Sequence record: ON528735
Strand: one strand, 5' to 3'
Source of the DNA: Shigella phage ESh25
DNA: 64,000 nucleotides
Below are positions 1,811-64,000 of this stretch, piece by piece; position 1 is the first letter of the stretch, and the number at the start of each line of letters is the position of its first letter. The notes below the pieces were generated by a model, which was not told the DNA's origin, ran no database searches, and worked only from the letters and a program-made list of their open reading frames with translations. The translations under genes and the position numbers were made by a program.

Positions 1811-3130
1811 TCACACATAAAACACATCATAACGACCACGGGTAACACCAACATAAAGAAGTTGTTGGGCCAATTCAGCATCTGCATAATGAATACAAGG
1901 CGTATAAATGAAAGCACGGTCTACAGACATACCCTGAGCTTTATGGAATGTTGATGCAGGAAGTGCTTTCACTTTACTAAACTGTGATTTAGCATCCCAA
2001 AAATCACTCCACGGAGCTTTTCCGCCTTTGTTCCAATTTTTATAAGTTTCTGCTGTTTTACCTAAAAACAGGTTAAACTTATATAGCTCTTCATCAGATG
2101 AAATTATTTTAATCTTTTCACGATAATATTCATCATCGCCGTAAGTTTCTACTGTTAAATCCCAATGACGAATTAAGTATTCTCCAGGAACACCACGGGC
2201 TTTAACAAACGTTGATGTATACTCTGCTTCTATAATACGAACTAATTGTCCGTTATTAAAAATAATTTCTGACACAGGCTTTCCATCAATTTTATATGTT
2301 TTAATTAATGGTTCCTGCATTACAATAATTTCACCGACAATAAAATCTTTATCAGTTTCAAAAATCTTTTTACGAATAATGCTATTTAACTTATCAACAG
2401 ATTTATTCGTAAATGCCATCACACGATTTTCAAACAAATCATCTAATGATTTAACAATTGAAAAATAATTTACCATAAAATCGCGTAAAGCGGTATCACC
2501 AGTAAATCCACGTACTCCATGCCCGTCAACAACTTTATCATAAATCCACTTACCGTTACGAACGTCAGTAGCTACATCAATAATAGGAGCATTACTGCGT
2601 TTAACTTCAGTGAGTTCACACTGATAAAAATCTTTATGTGTAAAGAATGGACTGATATAAGCAGTATTTTCTCCTGGGTCAACAGGTCTAATTTGCTTAT
2701 TATCCCCTATTCCAATTATAGTACACCACGGCGGGATAGTTGAAAGCAGAATTTTAAATAGCTTTCTATCATACATTGACACTTCATCGCAGATTAATAC
2801 CCTGCATTTAGCTAAATCTGGTACTTCTTTTTGTTCAAAAAGAACGTTTTCTTCATATGTTACCGGGTTAATTTTAAGAATACTGTGAATAGTACTCGCT
2901 TCTTTCCCCGACAGTTTTGAAAGAATCTTTTTAGCTGCATGAGTAGGAGCTGCTAAAATAATACCAGTTTCACCCGTAGATATTAAAGCTTCAATGATGA
3001 ACTTAGTAAGAGTAGTCTTACCAGTACCAGCAGGTCCATTAATAGTTACATGATGTTTCTTTTCTTTAATAGCCCTCATAACAATGTTAAAGGCATTTTT
3101 CTGGCCTTCGGTCAAATCATCAAATGTCAT
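1811..3130 (-). CDS. dda: Dda DNA helicase (SF1B)
   Basis: 439 aa; Walker A GPAGTGKT; near-identical to T4 Dda as I recall it. Confidence 0.95.
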   Translation of the reverse strand: MTFDDLTEGQKNAFNIVMRAIKEKKHHVTINGPAGTGKTTLTKFIIEALISTGETGIILAAPTHAAKKILSKLSGKEASTIHSILKINPVTYEENVLFEQKEVPDLAKCRVLICDEVSMYDRKLFKILLSTIPPWCTIIGIGDNKQIRPVDPGENTAYISPFFTHKDFYQCELTEVKRSNAPIIDVATDVRNGKWIYDKVVDGHGVRGFTGDTALRDFMVNYFSIVKSLDDLFENRVMAFTNKSVDKLNSIIRKKIFETDKDFIVGEIIVMQEPLIKTYKIDGKPVSEIIFNNGQLVRIIEAEYTSTFVKARGVPGEYLIRHWDLTVETYGDDEYYREKIKIISSDEELYKFNLFLGKTAETYKNWNKGGKAPWSDFWDAKSQFSKVKALPASTFHKAQGMSVDRAFIYTPCIHYADAELAQQLLYVGVTRGRYDVFYV

Positions 3131-32892: not shown

Positions 32893-33226
32893 AATTAATC
32901 CTTTTTATCAAGAACCGCATTCAGCTTGTTAGTAATTTTATCCAGACGCTCATTGAACTCACTAGAAGATAAGCCCTTTTCTGGAGAAATTAAACTAATC
33001 ACGAAAAATATAGCAATAAAAGGAATAAGGAAAATAGCTCTCCAACTGCCATAAACAGAAAGAATGTTACAGTTGTAAGAAAATCAGCTAAACCTTTACG
33101 AAATTTATACATATTTACCCTTAATTAATTAACCAAGCATTGATAAGCACTAAACTATATTGCGAATAAAATTCTGGACCAAAATGAAAAATCATATCAT
33201 TTATAGTATCCATAATGTAATTCAAT

Positions 33227-33697
33227 TTAATCATGTGTCCACACCCCATCGGTATTTGACCAAAGTCGTTGATTATCTGATCCTCGCCACAGCTTTTTGG
33301 TCGGAAGATTTTTCTCATACTTCCCATCAATAATAACATCAACATATTTAAGCATTTCTAGTTGTTTAATATCTTCAAACTTATATCCTGTCCACAACCA
33401 AATGCTTTTATTGGGATAAAGATTTTTAATAGTTTGAACCACAGAGTGAATCACGTCTCTGTTATCAGGATAAAGAGGGTCACCTCCGGTTATAGTTAAT
33501 CCTTCTATATAATCATTATTCAAACATTCAATTAATTGTTCTAATGTTTCACCGGTGAATGGAATACCATTTCTAGCATTCCATGTTGATTTATTATAAC
33601 ACCCTTCGCATTTATGCAAACACCCCGTAACGAAAAGAACTGTCCTGCATCCAGGACCATTAACAAAGCAGCACGGGTATATTCTGTCATAATTCAT
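33227..33697 (-). CDS. nrdG: anaerobic ribonucleotide reductase activase NrdG (radical SAM)
   Basis: 156 aa; cysteine cluster CLHKCEGC; follows nrdD. Confidence 0.9.
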   Translation of the reverse strand: MNYDRIYPCCFVNGPGCRTVLFVTGCLHKCEGCYNKSTWNARNGIPFTGETLEQLIECLNNDYIEGLTITGGDPLYPDNRDVIHSVVQTIKNLYPNKSIWLWTGYKFEDIKQLEMLKYVDVIIDGKYEKNLPTKKLWRGSDNQRLWSNTDGVWTHD

Positions 33698-34526
33698 TTA
33701 TATATTTCCAATTATAGCCTTCAACACTTTTACGTTCGCCATTTAAACATTTTAAAATATTTCCTTTGCTAGAAATATTAAAATATTTTGCTGCGTCTGG
33801 TATATAATTAAATGTTTTTAAAAGAACACCATCTTTATATGCGCCAAATAAATTAAGAGTATATTTTTCTCGAAGACGCTGATGTTTCCTTTTCATAACC
33901 TCAGGATTTGCATACGCCAACTTCAATGAATTTCTGTGTTTTTCTTTTACTTCAGGTTTTTGCATTGCTAACTTAGTTAGCCTGGAAATTTTATTTCTAA
34001 CTTCGTCAGTTTTCATTGCATTTGACAAATTTAATAAAGTTTTATTTCTAACTTCAGGTTTTTGCATTGCTAACTTAGTTAGTTCTCTATGTCTTTTTCT
34101 AAAATCGTCATCCTTCCATATATTTTTCGATAATTTTGACATAGAGCGGTGAAATAATTCCTTTTCACTGGAATACAATTTAAAAATTTCATCCAATTCA
34201 TCCGCATTAAATCTATCGGTATTCGAGTTTATCATTCTATGAAAGGCATAACACATTTTACTATTGCTTGTTTTAGCTAAATAGTAATGAGCTAACGCAT
34301 GGTCATAATATGACAAATTAACAATATTCCATTTATCTGTTTTATATTCAGGAAATATAGATTTGGGAAGCACGTGATGTGCTTCCGTTTTTCCTTTTAT
34401 TTTAGGATTATTATAATTTTTTGTTATCAAATCAACATATGACAATAGTAAATCATTATTTTCTTCAAATATTAAAGCTAATTTATCATTCACAAAATCG
34501 CAAGGATAAAATCTATCATAATTCAT
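33687..34526 (-). CDS. HNH homing endonuclease (Mob-like) fused to a duplicated nrdG 5' end
   Basis: 279 aa; HHVLPKS...N...H motif; first 14 residues MNYDRFYPCDFVND parallel nrdG MNYDRIYPCCFVNG. Confidence 0.7.
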   Translation of the reverse strand: MNYDRFYPCDFVNDKLALIFEENNDLLLSYVDLITKNYNNPKIKGKTEAHHVLPKSIFPEYKTDKWNIVNLSYYDHALAHYYLAKTSNSKMCYAFHRMINSNTDRFNADELDEIFKLYSSEKELFHRSMSKLSKNIWKDDDFRKRHRELTKLAMQKPEVRNKTLLNLSNAMKTDEVRNKISRLTKLAMQKPEVKEKHRNSLKLAYANPEVMKRKHQRLREKYTLNLFGAYKDGVLLKTFNYIPDAAKYFNISSKGNILKCLNGERKSVEGYNWKYINEL

Positions 34527-36340
34527 TGGTGTTTAACCCTATGCATGATTTCTTTATTTTTGCCAAGATTAAATCCGCGCTCGTTCGGATTTCCCAAATA
34601 ACCACATGTTCTTCTTATTGTGTTCATCTTTTTAGGATCAGTTTCTCCACAAATAGAACAAACAAATCCGTTTTCAGTAGGAGTCATTTCATGGGTACTT
34701 CCGCATGTAAAACACTTATCTACTGGCATATTAACACCAAAATAATCTAAATGCTGTGCAGCATAATCCCACACGGCCTCAAGACCTTTTAAGTTATTTT
34801 TCATATCAGGAAGTTCAACATAAGAAATGTGACCACCTGTCGCAATGAAATGATATGGCGCTTCACGAGAAATCTTTTCAAACGGAGTAATATTTTCTTC
34901 TACTGAAACATGGAAACTGTTAGTGTACCAGCCTTTATCAGTAACATCTTTTACGCTTCCATATTTTTCTGTATCGAGTTTACAGAAGCGATAACAAAGG
35001 TTTTCAGCAGGAGTCGAATATAAACTAAAAGCAAACCCAGTTCTTTCAGTCCACTGTTTAAGACGAGCATTCATTTTAGTTAAAATTTCTTGTCCAATAT
35101 CACGACCGACAAGAATATTCAATTCATGAATACCAATGTATCCTAAAGACACTGAACTTCTACCGTTTTTAAATAACTCAATTATGTCGTCATCAGGTTT
35201 AAGACGAACCCCGAATGCACCTTCTTGGTAAAGAATAGGAGCAACAGTCGCTTTAACTCCTTTTAAGGAACTAATTCTACACATCAAAGCTTCAAAACAT
35301 AAATCCATTCGTTCATTGAACAATTCGATAAATTTCTGTTCATTGAACTGTGTTCCAATATAAGAATCTAATGCGATACGAGGAAGATTCAGTGTTACAA
35401 CACCGAGATTATTACGTCCATCAAGAATTTCATTGCCAGTCGAATCTTTCCATACGCTCAAGAAACTACGACAACCCATTGGAGAAACAGGAATAGATGA
35501 GCCAGTGATAGCTTTATTGTTCTTAGCTGAAATAATATCAGGATACATTCTTTTGCTTGCGCACTCTAAAGCAAGTTGCTTAATGTCGTAATTCGGATCG
35601 TCTTTATAAAGATTAACGCCTTCTTCAACGAACATAACAAGCTTAGGGAAAATAGGAGTTATCCCATCACGACCAAGACCTTTAATACGATTTTTCAGAA
35701 TTGCTTTCTGAATCATTCGTTCAGTCCAGTCAGTTCCCGTACCAAATGTAATTGTTACAAAAGGCGTTTGTCCGTTTGAACTAAAGAGAGTGTTTACTTC
35801 ATATTCATAAGCTTGGAATGCATCGTATACATCTTTTTCTGTTTTAGATTGAGCATAATTTAACGCATCAGCGATTTGCCATTTTTCTGCATCCTCAATA
35901 TGTTTTGCATAGGTGCGTTTAACATAAGGAGAAAGTACTTTATCTACATTCGCAAAAGTCGTTCCGCCGTATTGGTGAGAAGCAACCTGTGCAGTAATTT
36001 GTGCCATAATTGCAGTAGCAACGCCAATTGATTTAGGAGTTTCAATCTGTGCATTACCAAGCTTAAATCCGTTCTCAAGCATTCCTTTTAAATCTACTAA
36101 ACAACAATTAGTAAATGGAAGAGCAGGGGAATAATCAATATCATGGAAATGAATAATTCCGCTTTCATGCGCTTTCATAATAAAAGACGGGACCATATTT
36201 TTGGCAATGTGTTTAGACACAATACCAGCCATAAGGTCCCGTTGAGTTGGAAAAACACGAGAATCTTTATTAGCATTCTCGTTTAAAAGGTCTTTATTAG
36301 TTTTATGAATCAATCCTTCAATTTCTTTTTCAATTGTCAT
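34523..36340 (-). CDS. nrdD: anaerobic ribonucleotide reductase NrdD, intron-less
   Basis: 605 aa continuous ORF with glycyl radical region and C-terminal Cys cluster. Confidence 0.95.
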   Translation of the reverse strand: MTIEKEIEGLIHKTNKDLLNENANKDSRVFPTQRDLMAGIVSKHIAKNMVPSFIMKAHESGIIHFHDIDYSPALPFTNCCLVDLKGMLENGFKLGNAQIETPKSIGVATAIMAQITAQVASHQYGGTTFANVDKVLSPYVKRTYAKHIEDAEKWQIADALNYAQSKTEKDVYDAFQAYEYEVNTLFSSNGQTPFVTITFGTGTDWTERMIQKAILKNRIKGLGRDGITPIFPKLVMFVEEGVNLYKDDPNYDIKQLALECASKRMYPDIISAKNNKAITGSSIPVSPMGCRSFLSVWKDSTGNEILDGRNNLGVVTLNLPRIALDSYIGTQFNEQKFIELFNERMDLCFEALMCRISSLKGVKATVAPILYQEGAFGVRLKPDDDIIELFKNGRSSVSLGYIGIHELNILVGRDIGQEILTKMNARLKQWTERTGFAFSLYSTPAENLCYRFCKLDTEKYGSVKDVTDKGWYTNSFHVSVEENITPFEKISREAPYHFIATGGHISYVELPDMKNNLKGLEAVWDYAAQHLDYFGVNMPVDKCFTCGSTHEMTPTENGFVCSICGETDPKKMNTIRRTCGYLGNPNERGFNLGKNKEIMHRVKHQ

Positions 36341-60230: not shown

Positions 60231-60343
60231 AGTTTTAGGGAATTCTAGGGTCAGGAGGGGCAATTAAAAGATAGGATAATATATTATAAAGGGTAGAAAC
60301 TAAATGATGCCTAGAGAGGCCCGGAAAGGCCTAGATACCAAAA

Positions 60344-60367
60344 AGCCCCAACCTTTTGGTCGGGGCT
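60344..60367 (-). terminator. intrinsic terminator hairpin (8 bp stem)
   Basis: agccccaaccttttggtcggggct. Confidence 0.55.
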
Positions 60368-60374
60368 AAGAATG

Positions 60375-60848
60375 TTATTTGATTTGTTTAGCAGACCAAA
60401 TGTGGTCTTTAATAATTTTTTGGATGTCTTCAACATACTCTAGGTCATGAGCATGTGGGTTATCTTTGAAACTATAAGCACGAGCTAGCTTTTGGCCTTC
60501 AGTTTTGATTACTAAAAGCTCTTTAAGGATAGCTTCATATTTAGAGATAATTCCTTTAACAATATTTTTTTCTTGTGTAGTTTTAGGGTCTGCTTTAGGA
60601 GCAGGTTTACCCGAAGCCTTTGCAAAAGCAGCGCCAGTAGCAACCAAACTTTTCCAGGCCATACTAACTGCATTCCCTGTAAATCCTTCGGCTTTCATAT
60701 CACGAGCAAATTGGAATCGTGATTCATCGGAAGCATCTTTATAGGAATATTTACCCGCGGCAATGGCTGCTTTTGCGACAGCTTGAATTTCGGTGCTAGA
60801 TGCTTCATTTAACACCGCTTCATTTAAAAATTGAGCATATGATTTCAT
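60375..60848 (-). CDS. protein with capsid-targeting-like N-terminus (candidate internal protein)
   Basis: 157 aa; N-terminus MKSYAQFLNE resembles the T4 internal-protein targeting sequence MKTYQEFIAE; Ala/Lys-rich. Confidence 0.5.
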   Translation of the reverse strand: MKSYAQFLNEAVLNEASSTEIQAVAKAAIAAGKYSYKDASDESRFQFARDMKAEGFTGNAVSMAWKSLVATGAAFAKASGKPAPKADPKTTQEKNIVKGIISKYEAILKELLVIKTEGQKLARAYSFKDNPHAHDLEYVEDIQKIIKDHIWSAKQIK

Positions 60849-60898
60849 CTTATTTCCTGTTTTAATTCGTGGTTTTAATATACTTATTTATACCAAAA

Positions 60899-60922
60899 AG
60901 CCCCAACCTTTCGGTCGGGGCT
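60899..60922 (-). terminator. intrinsic terminator hairpin at end of tRNA operon
   Basis: agccccaacctttcggtcggggct, near-duplicate of hairpin at 60344. Confidence 0.55.
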
Positions 60923-60969
60923 AAGCCTTGCGGCAACCTTGTCGGGGTTCCACCTGCTAAGGCAAGTGT

Positions 60970-61066
60970 TTGTACGAAACGCCGGGATTCGAACCCGGTT
61001 ATTAAGCAGTTGACGCTACTTAATATTTTTAAAAGGCCATATCTCGACCATATCCGAACGTTCCGT
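60970..61066 (-). ncRNA. tRNA-like stable RNA (acceptor stem + T-arm, enlarged interior, no encoded CCA)
   Basis: ACGGAAC...GTTTCGT acceptor pairing and CCGGG-TTCGAAT-CCCGG T-arm; reminiscent of T4 small stable RNAs. Confidence 0.35.
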
Positions 61067-61238
61067 CAAAAACGCTACTCGGCTTACGGCAAAGATATTT
61101 CCTCGAATCGATAATTCGGTGCGCCGTTTCTGCTGTGATATAAGGGGACATTAACAAAACATAAAGATTTATTAATGCCAGTCCTTAAACAGGGAACATC
61201 AGTCCGACGACTTACCGGTAGCGACCCGGCTTCTTGTT

Positions 61239-61314
61239 TGGTCGAGGCAGTAGGAATCGAACCTACGACCTAGGACTTAGAAGGTCCTTGCTCTTCCTTC
61301 TGAGCTATGCCTCG
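61239..61314 (-). tRNA. tRNA-Arg (anticodon UCU)
   Basis: Manual fold: 7 bp acceptor, D and T arms, loop CTTCTAA, encoded CCA. Confidence 0.75.
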
Positions 61315-61318
61315 GATT

Positions 61319-61393
61319 TGGCGGACGTGATAGGATTCGAACCTATAACCAATCGCTTAACAGGCGATCGCTCTGCCATTGAGCTACACATCC
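61319..61393 (-). tRNA. tRNA-Asn (anticodon GUU)
   Basis: Manual fold: loop CTGTTAA, GGTTCGAAT T-loop, encoded CCA. Confidence 0.7.
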
Positions 61394-61397
61394 AAAT

Positions 61398-61484
61398 TGG
61401 TGGGGAGTGGTGGAGTCGAACCACCCGAGTCGCAATGACAATGGATTTACAGTCCACACCGCTACCTCTACGGGATAACTCCCC
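61398..61484 (-). tRNA. type II tRNA-like, possibly tRNA-Tyr (GUA)
   Basis: 87 nt; acceptor GGGGAGT/ACTCCCC, T-arm GGTGG-TTCGACT-CCACC, long variable arm, candidate loop CTGTAAA; D-arm irregular. Confidence 0.45.
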
Positions 61485-61493
61485 AAATTAATT

Positions 61494-61568
61494 TGGTGGC
61501 CCTGGGTGGAATTGAACCACCATCTGGCGATTATGAGTCGCTTGCTTGAACCTTCCAGCTACAGGGCC
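61494..61568 (-). tRNA. tRNA-Ile/Met type (anticodon CAU)
   Basis: Manual fold: loop CTCATAA, encoded CCA. Confidence 0.75.
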
Positions 61569-61569
61569 T

Positions 61570-61645
61570 TGGTGCTGATTGACGGAATCGAACCGCCGAC
61601 CTTCTCATTACAAGTGAGTTGCTCTACCTACTGAGCTAAATCAGC
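61570..61645 (-). tRNA. tRNA-Thr (anticodon UGU)
   Basis: Manual fold: loop CTTGTAA, encoded CCA. Confidence 0.75.
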
Positions 61646-61650
61646 AAAAC

Positions 61651-61740
61651 TGGCGGAGGCGATAGGATTTGAACCTATGAGTCGCCGGAGCGACTGCCGG
61701 TTTTCAAGACCGGTGCATTAAACCACTCTGCCACGCCTCC
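61651..61740 (-). tRNA. tRNA-Ser (anticodon UGA), type II
   Basis: Manual fold: long variable arm, loop CTTGAAA, encoded CCA. Confidence 0.75.
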
Positions 61741-61743
61741 AAA

Positions 61744-61751
61744 TATTTATA
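61744..61751 (-). promoter_or_regulatory. possible late promoter TATAAATA at segB 3' end
   Basis: Exact 8-mer on minus strand overlapping last segB codons, a few nt 5' of tRNA-Ser; could be chance in AT-rich DNA. Confidence 0.3.
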
Positions 61752-62355
61752 TATTGTTAATTTGATTTAGAATTCTTTTTGCTTGAGTATGACTTACGCC
61801 AATATGCTTAGCATATTTAGATAATTCACCCCGCTTAGAAAAATCATATAATTTAGAAATTTCTATTCTTCTTTTTCTTTCATCCGCAGAAACTTTTGCT
61901 TCGTTTGCTTTTGCTATTTTACGTTTAGCTTCTTGAGAATGAGTTTTACCAGCAAAGCCATTTTTCATTAATCCATTTGAAGACCATCCTTTTAATTTTC
62001 CGTTAGAATGTGCCTTTTTAACACCCAATGAAATTAATTCGCGTTGCTGATCTGTCATAGGATAATTATTTATATGATCCCATCCACCTTCACCTCCAAG
62101 TTTTAAATTATACACATCTGGTCTATTTAAAAACTCTTCTGTGACAATATTTTTCTCGGCTTCAAGCATAGATTCTTTATCATCAAAATACTCTAATATT
62201 TCTTTAGAAAAATTTTCTATGCCATATTTATCTTGGGCTCTTTTTAATAATTTACCAGAACCCATATATCCATCATCTAAATTTTCGGTAGAATGCACAC
62301 CAATATAAATTTTATTATTAATTTTATTTGTTATTTTATAAAGATAAAAATGCAT
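61747..62355 (-). CDS. segB: GIY-YIG homing endonuclease SegB
   Basis: FYLYKITNK...IYIGV motif; embedded in the tRNA cluster as in T4; track ORF starts at ATG 62397 (216 aa), I prefer ATG 62355 next to the motif. Confidence 0.8.
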   Translation of the reverse strand: MHFYLYKITNKINNKIYIGVHSTENLDDGYMGSGKLLKRAQDKYGIENFSKEILEYFDDKESMLEAEKNIVTEEFLNRPDVYNLKLGGEGGWDHINNYPMTDQQRELISLGVKKAHSNGKLKGWSSNGLMKNGFAGKTHSQEAKRKIAKANEAKVSADERKRRIEISKLYDFSKRGELSKYAKHIGVSHTQAKRILNQINNI

Positions 62356-62401
62356 ATCAGTCCCTAATAAAGAACTGAGCGTCTCACGACGAGTCATAAA
62401 T

Positions 62402-62475
<74 letters not shown>

Positions 62476-62480
62476 AAATT

Positions 62481-62567
62481 TGGTGCGAGAAGTGGGACTC
62501 GAACCCACAAGGAAATCATTCCGCAGCATTTTAAGTGCTGTGCCTTTACCAATTTGACCATTCTCGC
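62481..62567 (-). tRNA. tRNA-Leu (anticodon UAA), type II
   Basis: Manual fold: long variable arm, loop CTTAAAA, encoded CCA. Confidence 0.75.
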
Positions 62568-62568
62568 G

Positions 62569-62641
62569 CTGGGAATAAAGGACTCGAACCTTTGCATCTA
62601 GCAGTCAAAGTGCTATGCCTTACCAACTTGGCTAATTCCCA
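62569..62641 (-). tRNA. tRNA-Gln (anticodon UUG), no encoded CCA
   Basis: Manual fold: loop CTTTGAC; abuts tRNA-Leu (dimeric precursor arrangement). Confidence 0.7.
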
Positions 62642-62738
62642 ATTATTAACAAAGGCTCTCAAACAAGAACCCTTGATGATAGAGGGTATTAATCAGTGCG
62701 GTATGAGTTAATAATAACAAATAGTTCTTAAAGCATAT

Positions 62739-63026
62739 TTAACATTTATGATAATACATATTTACGATGCATTCAAGACCCAAAGGATTCTTGAAAATAT
62801 CATATTCAAGAAGACCTTTTTCTGTTTCAATAAAGAAATCAAAATTTACTGTATTAAATTTACGGTCTTCCTTCACTAATTTAACTTGAGAAGATGAACG
62901 GTCAATGTAAACTTTTTCAACTTCAAAACATGTTAAAATGCCATAATCATCAATCAAGGCTTTAGCTGCTTCTTGATCATATTTATATCCATTTTCAATG
63001 GATGATACTTTTGCATAAAAAATCAT
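62739..63026 (-). CDS. hypothetical protein
   Basis: 95 aa ORF. Confidence 0.45.
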   Translation of the reverse strand: MIFYAKVSSIENGYKYDQEAAKALIDDYGILTCFEVEKVYIDRSSSQVKLVKEDRKFNTVNFDFFIETEKGLLEYDIFKNPLGLECIVNMYYHKC

Positions 63027-63028
63027 TA

Positions 63029-63418
63029 TCAGCCTTCATCAACAATAGTATGAGTGTGGGCATTTACAATTTGCCACCAATCAAAGCGATTAGAACCATA
63101 CATTGGTTTGTTCTCATTTTCTTTGATAATGTCACGGAGTTCATCTTCGGTAGCGGCTTTCGCGATTAAATCAGCATATCCACCGCGAGGATAATAATTA
63201 TCACCTGCAAAAAGTAAAAAGTTTGGTTTAATGTTATTGAACTCTTCAAGAGTAATAACTGTTCCACCAGGTTGAACAATATCTACATAACTATATCCTA
63301 ATTTTTGAGCAGCATCTACTGCTTCAAGCAAGGTATCATGAGCCCATCCAATTTGGCAATCTGGCTTTTCAGATGGATTAGCCTGATAATCTGCATATAC
63401 TTTATACATTTTACTCAC
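63029..63418 (-). CDS. hypothetical protein
   Basis: 129 aa ORF. Confidence 0.5.
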   Translation of the reverse strand: MSKMYKVYADYQANPSEKPDCQIGWAHDTLLEAVDAAQKLGYSYVDIVQPGGTVITLEEFNNIKPNFLLFAGDNYYPRGGYADLIAKAATEDELRDIIKENENKPMYGSNRFDWWQIVNAHTHTIVDEG

Positions 63419-63596
63419 CTTTAGAAATTTTATCCATAACGATAGCGATTAAACCAATTAAAAATGCTACTACAAGCGAAAACACATTTTCTGCTGTAGT
63501 TAATAATCCGCATATAAATCCAACAAACATTGAAAAACTAAAAGCAGAAGCAGAAATTGCAATAGCAACATTTCGAATTAATTCACAGCGTTTCAT
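63411..63596 (-). CDS. small membrane protein
   Basis: Track ORF trimmed to MKRCELIRNV...; two hydrophobic helices. Confidence 0.45.
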   Translation of the reverse strand: MKRCELIRNVAIAISASAFSFSMFVGFICGLLTTAENVFSLVVAFLIGLIAIVMDKISKGE

Positions 63597-63660
63597 TTTA
63601 TTCTCCTCAGTAGTTGATAGGGTAATAGTATCACTACTAAAACCCCGTGTAAACAACTTT
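63597..63660 (-). repeat. promoter-leader cassette (second type)
   Basis: GTTTACA-17nt-TACTAT...tatcaactactGAGGAGAAtaaaATG; partner of the cassette in 63925..64000 and related to 43940..44010. Confidence 0.5.
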
Positions 63661-63666
63661 GTGAAA

Positions 63667-63924
63667 TTATTTTAAATCTTCTAATCGTTTCTTCATCTTA
63701 GAACCATTTTTAGCGATTTCTCCTGCGTCAGAGCATAATGCTAAAAGTGCTTTAACTTTAGTTTGGTCTCCTTTAAAAGACGAAGGATCGACTGCAGCAG
63801 CAAGTTCTTTAATACGAGAGAAAAGACGCTCAGCTTCAGCTAAAGCCATTCCAAGCTTTACTTCCATACCATGAGAAGATTCAGTGATAATAGTTTCTGT
63901 AGCAAACTCTTTATAAGTTTTCAT
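63667..63924 (-). CDS. candidate internal protein with capsid-targeting-like N-terminus (IPI-locus position)
   Basis: 85 aa; N-terminus MKTYKEFATE resembles MKTYQEFIAE; sits just past the tRNA cluster where T4 has ipI. Confidence 0.5.
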   Translation of the reverse strand: MKTYKEFATETIITESSHGMEVKLGMALAEAERLFSRIKELAAAVDPSSFKGDQTKVKALLALCSDAGEIAKNGSKMKKRLEDLK

Positions 63925-64000
63925 TTTTATTTTCCTAATTAATTTTGATGAGGTAATAGTATCACTACCTCATCAGTGTGTAAACAACTTTGTGAAATTA
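63925..64000 (-). promoter_or_regulatory. early promoter plus leader for the IP-like gene
   Basis: GTTTACA...TACTAT hexamers and SD before ATG 63924. Confidence 0.5.

What the first reader, a model, noticed from the sequence alone, without database searches (positions are those of the whole stretch)
33653..34540. HNH homing endonuclease gene fused to a duplicated nrdG start
The 279 aa HNH ORF sits between nrdD and nrdG. Its first ~14 codons (MNYDRFYPCDFVND, atgaattatgatagattttatccttgcgattttgtg) are a diverged duplicate of the nrdG start (MNYDRIYPCCFVNG, atgaattatgacagaatatacccgtgctgctttgtt). The endonuclease appears to have taken over the original nrdG initiation region, while a second copy of the 5' end restores nrdG, whose start overlaps the endonuclease stop by 11 nt. 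This is a clear footprint of intron-less homing into a gene start.
Basis: seen in the sequence. Interest (0 to 1): 0.6.

Follow-up and report, generated by a model that had tools for sequence, protein, structure and literature searches.

The report
Homing endonuclease inserted in nrdG start
A selfish endonuclease gene (a relative of phage T4 mobC) sits inside the first 14 codons of the phage nrdG gene: it uses nrdG's original start for itself and brings a differently spelled copy of those codons that keeps nrdG intact. This is a tidy but not unprecedented way for mobile DNA to live inside a gene without an intron.

Summary
On the minus strand, a 279-aa ORF (33687..34526) lies between nrdD and nrdG. 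Its first 40 nt match the first 40 nt of nrdG at 31/40. The next-best 40-mer in the window scores 24/40.

The window is a Tequatrovirus. In insert-free relatives, nrdG begins with exactly the 40 nt that now start the endonuclease ORF, and similarity stops after nt 40. So an 829-nt element entered nrdG after nt 40. It consists of 789 nt of unique sequence plus its own nrdG 5' end, which encodes MNYDRIYPCCFVN (the "CC allele").

Klebsiella Jiaodavirus phages carry an 86%-identical ortholog at the same position. There it is fused to their own native nrdG start and is again followed by the CC allele.

The ORF is under purifying selection (dN/dS 0.08) and has diverged less than its flanks. T4 MobC is only 27% identical but has the same layout.

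The CC allele also occurs in segH-carrying phages and in a few insert-free phages. I infer that it is a cleavage-immune allele, but this is untested.

Verdict: a real, ordinary-to-interesting member of the mobC-like HNH homing endonucleases. Its layout mirrors fungal mitochondrial endonuclease ORFs that carry replacement gene ends.

The parts
34523..36340 (-). nrdD, anaerobic ribonucleotide reductase large subunit (605 aa, intron-less). Its stop overlaps the endonuclease ATG by 4 nt (ATGA).
   Evidence: ORF list; Pfam NRDD E 1e-171. The same ATGA overlap joins nrdD directly to nrdG in insert-free R5505.
34487..34526 (-). Copy 1: the native nrdG nt 1-40 ('FD allele', MNYDRFYPCDFVN). It now supplies the start codon and first 13 codons of the endonuclease ORF.
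   Evidence: 40/40 identical to the nrdG start of insert-free R5505. The junction probe matches ~580 records only up to this point.
33698..34486 (-). Unique part of the inserted element (789 nt), covering endonuclease codons 14-276. It contains neither the ORF's start codon nor its stop codon.
   Evidence: Absent from R5505, ESh24 and U5 at an otherwise collinear junction. 85% identical to the Klebsiella-phage ortholog.
33687..34526 (-). Whole mobC-like HNH endonuclease ORF (279 aa).
   Evidence: ORF list; phrog_655 E 7e-37; annotated mobC in Yersinia phage PST; dN/dS 0.08 against Klebsiella-phage orthologs.
34275..34394 (-). HNH catalytic motif region (aa 45-84: GKTEAHHVLPKSIFPEY...WNIVNLSYYDHALAHYYL).
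   Evidence: Invariant H50, H51, N67, H76, H80. phrog_12434 HNH E 7e-15. Aligns to the Pfam-HNH stretch of T4 MobC. The model shows strand 47-51, strand 68-72, helix 73-84, which is the beta-beta-alpha order.
33939..34082 (-). Internal repeats encoding the LTKLAMQKPEV(R/K)xK helical (NUMOD3-like) units.
   Evidence: the repeat finder D5 and D8. A 242-aa natural variant, P0002, lacks one 37-aa unit.
33711..33824 (-). C-terminal NUMOD1 / I-HmuI NUMOD-like putative DNA-binding module (aa 235-272).
   Evidence: Pfam PF22083 E 2.4e-4 and PF07453 E 5.7e-3, both below the cut-off. Four of 7 homologs match, best E 1.9e-7.
33658..33697 (-). Copy 2: the element-borne nrdG nt 1-40 ('CC allele', MNYDRIYPCCFVN). 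It supplies the working start of nrdG, and its out-of-frame TGA (nt 9-11) is the endonuclease stop codon.
   Evidence: The same allele precedes nrdG in Klebsiella-phage mob+ genomes.
33227..33697 (-). nrdG, anaerobic RNR activase (156 aa). Intact, as a chimera of element-borne nt 1-40 and resident nt 41-471.
   Evidence: Pfam Fer4_12 E 1e-48. nt 41-471 are 95-99% identical to insert-free R5505, while nt 1-40 are 78%.
33642..33657 (-). Short hairpin (GTCCTG-GATG-CAGGAC) at nrdG nt 41-56, directly 3' of the insertion point. Its relevance is unknown.
   Evidence: Terminator-like hit. R5505 has GCCCTG...CAGGGC at the same place.

Best explanation
This is a free-standing HNH homing-endonuclease element of the T4 mobC type. 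It resides inside the nrdG coding sequence, not between genes.

Shown:
- An 829-nt element lies after nt 40 of nrdG.
- Its 789-nt unique part is read in frame from the resident nrdG ATG, so the endonuclease inherits nrdG's start codon and its ATGA overlap with the nrdD stop.
- The element ends with its own version of nrdG nt 1-40 (the CC allele). This rebuilds a full-length nrdG and also supplies the endonuclease's stop codon.
- The same element sits at the same nucleotide in Tequatrovirus and in Klebsiella Jiaodavirus phages.
- In each genus the upstream copy is the local native allele, and the downstream copy is the CC allele.
- The ORF is under purifying selection and has diverged less than its flanking host genes.

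Inferred:
- The enzyme cuts or nicks insert-free nrdG near nt 40.
- Repair copies the element from a mob+ co-infecting genome. The resident nt 1-40 plus nrdD serve as the left homology arm, and nrdG nt 41 onward as the right arm.
- The carrier genome is immune for two reasons. Copy 1 has lost the right half of the site. The rebuilt site differs at nt 24 and nt 28-30 (Asp10 GAT to Cys TGC).
- Nine mismatches in 40 nt between the copies also limit loss by repeat recombination.
For: - Left junction. R5505 nrdG nt 1-40 equal copy 1 at 40/40. 21 records carry the mob junction, and ~580 others match only through nrdG nt 40, 281 of them at >=99%.
- Two genera. Klebsiella-phage orthologs (86% aa identity) start MNFDRIYPSDFVN. 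That is the nrdG start of insert-free KpV477. Their own nrdG starts MNYDRIYPCCFVN.
- All 21 Tequatrovirus mob+ records keep FD-type copy 1, at >=96.3% over the 110-nt probe.
- Relative divergence between the window and Klebsiella phages. The mob unique part is 85% identical (dS 0.9, dN 0.07). nrdG is 54-84% identical by segment (dS 1.6-1.8, dN 0.25), and the nrdD 3' end is 78%.
- Co-conversion. In Roth04, UTI-K1 and KP01, nrdG stays Tequatrovirus-like to about nt 95 (read by eye from the alignment). In SmallBear it does not.
- Family. PHROG hits, the relation to T4 MobC, and invariant HNH residues.
- The leader is not part of the family. Relatives found outside this fusion have unrelated N-termini, and similarity starts at about residue 20-45.
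- Immunity inference. Both invaded alleles share T24 and G28/A29, and no mob+ nrdG does. Of the 60 best records carrying the CC allele, only ESh24 and U5 were confirmed to lack any endonuclease gene or remnant next to nrdG. Two further rows are the PD112 segH remnant, and one unannotated record was not read.
- T4 MobC has the same start (MNYDRIY) and the same end (...WKY.DEL, 11-nt overlap with nrdG).
Against: - No cleavage site, nicking activity or homing frequency is known for this protein or for T4 MobC. The 2010 review lists MobC activity as not determined and its target as unknown.
- Some free-standing endonucleases act away from where their gene sits. MobE nicks inside nrdB, not at its own insertion point between nrdA and nrdB. 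So the target need not lie at nt 40.
- The CC allele also exists in insert-free phages (ESh24, U5) and in all segH+ phages examined. It may simply be the allele of the lineage where the element arose, not one selected for immunity.
- Pfam HNH models do not match this protein. Fold searches with two models gave no HNH structure.
- Use of the copy-1 ATG is inferred from frame conservation only.
Confidence: 0.7

Rival explanations
1. The target and the immunity determinant lie elsewhere. The element is a mobile HNH endonuclease gene, but the CC copy is only the neutral nrdG allele of the lineage in which the element first formed. The duplication exists solely because an insertion inside nrdG had to keep the gene working. 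The enzyme cuts at a distance, as MobE does, and immunity depends on other polymorphisms.
For: The CC allele occurs natively in insert-free ESh24 and U5 and next to the unrelated endonuclease SegH. MobE nicks inside nrdB, away from its own insertion point between nrdA and nrdB.
Against: - Asp10 GAT to Cys TGC changes all three bases of a codon in an otherwise highly conserved 40 nt. The 70-nt junction is 100% identical in the 24 insert-free records listed, including RB69.
- The CC allele is almost always linked to an endonuclease gene.
- Copy 1 is never CC in the 21 mob+ records. That is what one expects if CC genomes cannot be invaded.
Confidence: 0.2
2. Target-site duplication followed by divergence in place. 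The insertion duplicated 40 nt of nrdG, and the two initially identical copies then drifted apart within this lineage.
For: A direct repeat flanking an insert is the classic signature of a target-site duplication.
Against: - Copy 1 is 40/40 identical to insert-free relatives, while copy 2 differs at 9 of 40 positions. The surrounding DNA is 95-99% identical to those relatives.
- In Klebsiella phages, copy 1 is the Klebsiella-native allele and copy 2 is again CC.
- The CC allele exists independently of the insert.
- Drift in place cannot produce this pattern.
Confidence: 0.03
3. The fusion is an annotation artefact or a relic. Copy 1 is just a dead 5' stump of nrdG that happens to be in frame, and the endonuclease is translated from an internal start or is no longer made.
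For: The 2010 review doubts several T4 endonuclease start sites and notes no good ribosome-binding site for mobC. The first ten residues of the model have low confidence (block mean pLDDT 64-67, residues 1-3 below 50).
Against: - There is no ATG between codon 1 and Met91, which lies downstream of the two catalytic histidines (sequence).
- Homologs need about 40-50 residues before the HH motif.
- The frame is kept in three lineages, apparently including an in-frame 3-nt deletion in T4's copy.
- dN/dS of 0.08 shows the ORF is translated and selected.
- The ATGA overlap with nrdD is the same coupling arrangement that nrdG uses in insert-free phages.
Confidence: 0.07

Closest known systems
Phage T4 MobC (free-standing HNH endonuclease gene between nrdD and nrdG)
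   Same: - Same locus and same layout.
- The ATG overlaps the nrdD stop by 4 nt.
- The N-terminus copies the nrdG start (MNYDRIY...VN).
- The C-terminus ...GY(T/N)WKY.(D/N)EL ends on the TGA inside nrdG, giving an 11-nt overlap.
- It has an HNH motif followed by a C-terminal NUMOD-like module.
   Different: - Only 27% identical overall. BLASTP similarity is confined to the ~60-aa HNH stretch.
- 210 aa against 279 aa.
- T4's copy 1 has decayed, apparently with a 3-nt deletion.
- T4's nrdG start is a third allele (MNYDRIYPCDFVNG), not CC.
- T4 nrdG nt 41-300 are Jiaodavirus-like.
SegH (GIY-YIG endonuclease that replaces mobC in T6, PP01, RB3-group phages)
   Same: It occupies the same nrdD/nrdG junction and is linked to the same CC allele of the nrdG start.
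   Different: - An unrelated catalytic family (GIY-YIG).
- It has its own start (MHRYYIIYKITN) and is not fused to nrdG codons.
- It lies upstream of the nrdG ATG (4-nt overlap) and comes with a respelled nrdD 3' end of about 60 nt rather than a duplicated nrdG start.
Fungal mitochondrial mobile endonuclease ORFs carrying a foreign gene end (Allomyces macrogynus atp6; Glomus atp6, atp9, cox2, nad3)
   Same: - An endonuclease ORF is inserted inside a host coding sequence.
- It brings a diverged replacement copy of the gene end that keeps the host gene whole.
- The native copy is displaced and remains nearly identical to insert-free relatives.
- The ORF is often in phase with the host gene (PMC3630166).
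   Different: - Those replace the 3' (C-terminal) end; this one replaces the 5' end.
- Those are LAGLIDADG or GIY-YIG enzymes in organelles; this is an HNH enzyme in a lytic phage.
- Here the displaced native piece is not a dead remnant. It serves as the endonuclease's own start.
T4 MobE and 'intron-less homing' endonucleases (SegF, SegG)
   Same: Free-standing endonuclease genes next to ribonucleotide reductase or other conserved genes. They are co-transcribed and translationally coupled with the upstream gene, and they spread with co-conversion of flanking markers.
   Different: They sit between genes and cut a neighbouring gene, with immunity from scattered polymorphisms. Here the element interrupts the target gene itself.
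Aeromonas phage Aeh1 mobE insertion in nrdA, and the T4 MobA / gene 60 cassette
   Same: An HNH mob-type gene inserted within a coding sequence of a nucleotide-metabolism or replication gene, with host function preserved without an intron or intein.
   Different: Those leave the host protein split into two polypeptides, with added interaction tails or a translational bypass. Here the host protein stays a single full-length chain.

Membership tests
HNH (beta-beta-alpha-metal) endonucleases | Conserved His-His / Asn / His motif | tested here: met
   EAHHVLP...WNIVNL...DHALAH. H50, H51, N67, H76 and H80 are invariant in alignments A1 and A5. phrog_12434 'HNH endonuclease' E 7e-15. The stretch aligns to T4 MobC's above-threshold Pfam HNH segment.
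HNH (beta-beta-alpha-metal) endonucleases | Match to a curated Pfam HNH model above its cut-off | tested here: not met
   No HNH family at E<0.1 for this protein. One distant homolog of 7 reaches PF01844 at E 0.01.
HNH (beta-beta-alpha-metal) endonucleases | Beta-beta-alpha fold similar to solved HNH enzymes such as I-HmuI | tested here: inconclusive
T4 mobC-type elements at the nrdD/nrdG junction | Same insertion point and the same overlaps with nrdD and nrdG | tested here: met
   4-nt and 11-nt overlaps in both phages. Both ORFs begin with nrdG-derived codons and end on nrdG's internal TGA.
T4 mobC-type elements at the nrdD/nrdG junction | Orthology to T4 MobC over the full protein length | tested here: not met
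   27% identity. Significant BLASTP similarity is limited to about 60 aa. This is a distinct sub-lineage, although PST annotates it as mobC.
Homing endonuclease genes (mobile by break repair) | Presence/absence polymorphism at one exact site among close relatives | tested here: met
   The window and R5505 are 95-99% identical on both sides of a clean 829-nt difference. 30 of 835 matching records carry the element.
Homing endonuclease genes (mobile by break repair) | Horizontal spread independent of the host genome | tested here: met
   The same element occurs in Tequatrovirus and Jiaodavirus. It has dS 0.9, against 1.6-1.8 for the adjacent nrdG.
Homing endonuclease genes (mobile by break repair) | Co-conversion of flanking markers, with variable tract length | tested here: inconclusive
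   Roth04, UTI-K1 and KP01 carry Tequatrovirus-like nrdG to about nt 95, while SmallBear does not. The tracts are short, few genomes were compared, and the boundary was read by eye.
Homing endonuclease genes (mobile by break repair) | Site-specific cleavage of the empty allele and super-Mendelian inheritance in crosses | not testable with these tools
   Needs enzyme assays and phage crosses. The literature lists MobC activity as not determined.
Gene-end-replacing mobile endonuclease ORFs (fungal mitochondrial type) | The element carries a diverged copy of the host gene's end, and the displaced native copy matches insert-free relatives | tested here: met
   Copy 1 is 40/40 identical to R5505, and copy 2 shares 31/40 with copy 1. 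The literature description is in PMC3630166. Here the 5' end is replaced, not the 3' end.

The most novel reading that the evidence does not exclude
Replacing the 5' end of a gene may be a distinct and so far undescribed way for phage homing endonucleases to live inside a coding sequence without an intron or intein.

- The element has no start or stop codon of its own. It takes both from the target gene.
- Its two 40-nt nrdG copies would act at once as a homology arm, an immunity determinant and a translational coupling device.
- The shared CC allele (Asp10 to Cys) would be a common immunity allele fought over by two unrelated endonucleases, SegH and this Mob.
- Insert-free CC phages such as ESh24 and U5 would be resistant survivors. 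They could arise by excision across the 11-nt identical stretch ATGAATTATGA.
Probability: 0.35. Interest if true: 0.6.

Novelty: new member of a known kind. Interest (0 to 1): 0.45.

Why it matters
MobC has been listed for two decades as a putative T4 homing endonuclease with no known activity or target. This anatomy turns that into a sharp experiment.

- It predicts the target: insert-free nrdG around nt 20-45.
- It predicts the bases that confer immunity: nt 24 and nt 28-30.
- It predicts which natural phages should be susceptible (FD allele) or resistant (CC allele).

It also shows that a phage endonuclease gene can occupy a coding sequence without an intron, an intein or a split host protein. 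It does so by swapping in a replacement gene end, the mirror image of what mobile ORFs do in fungal mitochondria.

Practically, the fused leader misleads annotation. The ortholog in phage UTI-K1 is labelled as a second NrdG activase.

Tried and rejected
- **Solved structures by sequence.** A PDB search with the protein and with a 7-sequence profile gave nothing meaningful.
- **IMG/VR search.** A search for relatives returned only native nrdG starts and one weak partial hit. The element is essentially confined to cultured Tequatrovirus and Jiaodavirus records.
- **Large protein search.** It found only 8 clusters, too few for a deep alignment.
- **Primary paper.** Sandegren, Nord and Sjoberg 2005 (NAR 33:6203) describes the mobC/segH locus but is not in the held library. 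I therefore cannot say whether it already describes the duplicated nrdG start or where SegH cuts. Other papers that mention mobC do not describe the duplication.
- **Promoter and terminator scan.** The promoter-like count in 33100..34900 is at the shuffle expectation. The only nearby hit on the coding strand is a short terminator-like hairpin at nrdG nt 41-56.
- **Rejected readings.** Target-site duplication with divergence in place, and chance similarity.
Full report
**What is in the window**

All the genes concerned are on the minus strand.

| Feature | Coordinates | Notes |
|---|---|---|
| nrdD | 34523..36340 | 605 aa, uninterrupted; Pfam NRDD E 1e-171 |
| Endonuclease ORF | 33687..34526 | 279 aa |
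| nrdG | 33227..33697 | 156 aa; Pfam Fer4_12 E 1e-48 |

The ORF's ATG overlaps the nrdD stop (ATGA). Its stop overlaps the nrdG start by 11 nt.

The first 40 nt of the ORF (34487..34526) and of nrdG (33658..33697) share 31 of 40 bases. Similarity stops at nt 40/41. The next-best of all ~128,000 40-mers in the window scores 24/40. The repeat finder reports the pair on its own, with 829-nt spacing (D6).

**Identity of the genome and the gene**

The region is 99.9% identical to Salmonella phage vB_SenS_Jbel, a Tequatrovirus. 835 phage records match it, and 30 of them cover at least 80% of the probe and so include the ORF. Yersinia phage PST annotates the same gene as mobC.

T4 itself has mobC (210 aa) in the same position, with the same 4-nt and 11-nt overlaps.

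Pfam finds no HNH domain in the window protein. It returns only sub-threshold NUMOD1 and I-HmuI NUMOD-like hits at aa 235-272. Other evidence supports an HNH assignment:

- PHROGs gives 'homing endonuclease' at E 7e-37 and 'HNH endonuclease' at E 7e-15 for aa 23-103.
- Residues 42-101 align to T4 MobC 22-79 (E 1e-7). That stretch contains T4's above-threshold Pfam HNH match.
- H50, H51, N67, H76 and H80 are invariant.
- A model of aa 1-130 (pLDDT 89) has strand, strand, helix in the order expected for the HNH core.

Fold searches returned only helical proteins and are uninformative.

**The decisive comparison**

In insert-free phage R5505, nrdD overlaps nrdG directly by ATGA. Its nrdG begins ATGAATTATGATAGATTTTATCCTTGCGATTTTGTGAATGG. 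The first 40 nt are identical to the start of the window's endonuclease ORF.

A 110-nt probe across the nrdD/ORF junction gives two classes of match:

- 21 records match over essentially its full length (98-100% of the probe).
- About 580 records match only through nrdG nt 40. Of these, 281 are at >=99% identity, and they include RB69.

So an 829-nt element lies after nt 40 of nrdG. It is 789 nt of unique sequence plus a second, differently spelled nrdG nt 1-40 encoding MNYDRIYPCCFVN. I call this the CC allele; the common native one (MNYDRFYPCDFVN) is the FD allele.

The unique part contains neither the start nor the stop of the endonuclease ORF. The ATG comes from copy 1. The TGA is nt 9-11 of copy 2, read out of frame.

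**The two copies are alleles, not drifted twins**

Klebsiella Jiaodavirus phages (Roth04, UTI-K1, SmallBear, KP01) carry an 86%-identical ortholog at the same nucleotide.

- Their ortholog starts MNFDRIYPSDFVN. That is exactly the nrdG start of the insert-free Klebsiella phage KpV477.
- Their own nrdG starts MNYDRIYPCCFVN.

In both genera, copy 1 is the recipient's native DNA and copy 2 travels with the element. All 21 Tequatrovirus records keep FD-type copy 1.

Around the element, the window is 95-99% identical to R5505, but copy 2 is only 78%.

**Mobility and selection**

Window compared with Klebsiella phages:

| Region | Nucleotide identity | dS | dN |
|---|---|---|---|
| mob unique part | 85% | 0.9 | 0.07 |
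| nrdG (by segment) | 54-84% | 1.6-1.8 | 0.25 |
| nrdD 3' end | 78% | not computed | not computed |

dN/dS for the endonuclease ORF is 0.08. The element crossed between genera after the host genes diverged, and it encodes a protein still under selection.

Downstream tracts vary. By eye in the alignment, Roth04, UTI-K1 and KP01 are Tequatrovirus-like to about nrdG nt 95, and SmallBear is not. This is suggestive of co-conversion.

Relatives of the protein found outside this fusion have their own N-termini, and similarity begins at about residue 20-45. The 13-residue leader is therefore not part of the endonuclease family.

**The CC allele has a wider story**

It also heads nrdG in the phages carrying the GIY-YIG endonuclease SegH at this junction: PP01, RB10 and CE1 by sequence, and T6 by BLAST match plus annotation. 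Those phages also carry a respelled last ~60 nt of nrdD.

It occurs in PD112, which holds an internally deleted segH remnant. It occurs in two truly insert-free phages, ESh24 and U5.

Of the 60 best CC-allele records, only ESh24 and U5 were confirmed to have no endonuclease gene or remnant beside nrdG. Two further rows are the PD112 remnant, and one record with only hypothetical annotations (SP21535) was not read.

Both invaded alleles share T24 and G28/A29, and no mob+ nrdG has those bases. Asp10 GAT has become Cys TGC, a change at all three positions.

The longest identical run between the copies is the first 11 nt. Recombination there would produce exactly the ESh24/U5 arrangement. This is an inference.

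**How it most likely works**

Shown: the anatomy, the exact junction, the allele pattern in two genera, purifying selection, and lower divergence than the flanks.

Inferred:

- The enzyme cuts or nicks empty nrdG near nt 40.
- Break repair copies the element from a co-infecting carrier. nrdD plus nrdG nt 1-40 serve as the left arm, and nrdG nt 41 onward as the right arm.
- The carrier is immune because copy 1 lacks the right half-site and the rebuilt site is respelled.
- Translation of the endonuclease is coupled to nrdD, and translation of nrdG is coupled to the endonuclease.

The main rival is that the CC allele is merely the founder lineage's allele, and that the target lies elsewhere, as with MobE, which nicks inside nrdB and not at its own insertion point. 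Duplication with drift in place is excluded by the allele pattern. An internal start is unlikely for four reasons. There is no ATG before Met91. Homologs need 40-50 residues ahead of the HH motif. The frame is kept in three lineages. dN/dS is low.

**Comparison with what is known**

- *T4 MobC* is the closest relative by layout, but it is only 27% identical. It has a decayed copy 1 and a different nrdG start allele.
- *Fungal mitochondrial mobile endonuclease ORFs* are the closest analogue by mechanism. They carry a foreign C-terminal end of atp6, atp9, cox2 or nad3 and displace the native end (PMC3630166). Here the 5' end is replaced, and the displaced piece is reused as the endonuclease's start.
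- *Classic intron-less homing genes* sit between genes. This one does not.
- *The Aeh1 nrdA and T4 gene 60 cases* split the host protein. This one leaves it whole.

The 2010 review lists MobC activity as not determined and its target as unknown. The primary 2005 paper on this locus could not be read, so an earlier description of the duplication cannot be excluded.

**Verdict**

The finding is correct and its interpretation is supported, with refinements. The gene is a new sub-lineage of a known kind, the mobC-like HNH homing endonucleases, and is already annotated as such in several genomes. The value lies in the clean definition of the element and in a testable prediction of target and immunity. 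Interest is moderate.

Noticed in passing
L004 (T4, NC_000866) 2447-2917, minus strand: T4 nrdG looks like a chimera. nt 41-300 are 94-99% identical to Klebsiella Jiaodavirus phages (SmallBear, KpV477) but only 56-74% to other Tequatroviruses. nt 301-471 are 99% Tequatrovirus. This looks like a ~260-nt co-conversion tract acquired together with T4 mobC. HP3.2 shares it.
   Followed up: partly
L018 (PP01) 2964-3030; also L019 (RB10), L021 (CE1), L024 (PD112); alignment A4 columns 236-300: Phages carrying segH have a respelled last ~60 nt of nrdD in addition to the CC allele of nrdG. The segH cassette therefore seems to replace gene ends on both sides.
   Followed up: partly
L024 (PD112, MH837626) 1262-1500: A ~240-nt remnant of segH (5' ~130 nt joined to 3' ~100 nt) lies between nrdD and a CC-allele nrdG. 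This is an endonuclease gene caught in decay.
   Followed up: partly
L022 (ESh24) 1501-1560 and L023 (U5) 2526-2585: These are insert-free phages with a native nrdD end but the CC allele of nrdG. They could be resistant survivors of element loss across the 11-nt identical stretch, or the ancestral source of the allele.
   Followed up: partly
L014 (UTI-K1) 1877-2713; L019 (RB10) 768-1969: Annotation errors apparently caused by this layout. The UTI-K1 endonuclease is labelled as a second 'class III RNR activating protein'. RB10 calls segH 'segD' and annotates a truncated nrdG (393 nt), although the full 471-nt ORF is present.
   Followed up: no
window 34497-34556, and matches: The 70 nt spanning the last 30 nt of nrdD and the first 40 nt of nrdG are 100% identical in the 24 insert-free records listed, including the distant RB69. 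281 records are at >=99%. This is unusually strong nucleotide conservation, of the kind homing endonucleases tend to target.
   Followed up: no
window 33642-33657 (minus strand): A hairpin (GTCCTG-GATG-CAGGAC) lies at nrdG nt 41-56, directly after the insertion point. R5505 has GCCCTG...CAGGGC, a change on both sides of the stem. ESh24 breaks the pair, so conservation is not strict.
   Followed up: no
L013 (Roth04) 2736-2969; L017 (KpV477) 1411-1629: Jiaodavirus phages have an extra 72-77-aa ORF between nrdD and nrdG. Its last 29 nt overlap the nrdG start (or copy 1 in mob+ phages), so copy 1 there also encodes the end of an upstream gene.
   Followed up: no
P0002 (protein cluster); window 33939-34082: A 242-aa natural variant of the endonuclease lacks one 37-aa repeat unit. 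This is consistent with recombination between the internal 42-nt repeats.
   Followed up: no
window 34523-36340: nrdD here has no group I intron, whereas T4 and PST carry the I-TevII intron in nrdD. The two mobile elements of this locus assort independently.
   Followed up: no
window 60335-64000: This stretch holds repeat families with tRNA-like ends (61239-62425), a near-identical 36-nt hairpin repeat (60335-60370 and 60890-60925) and a 56-nt repeat (63614-64000). It is probably the tRNA gene cluster and its terminators.
   Followed up: no
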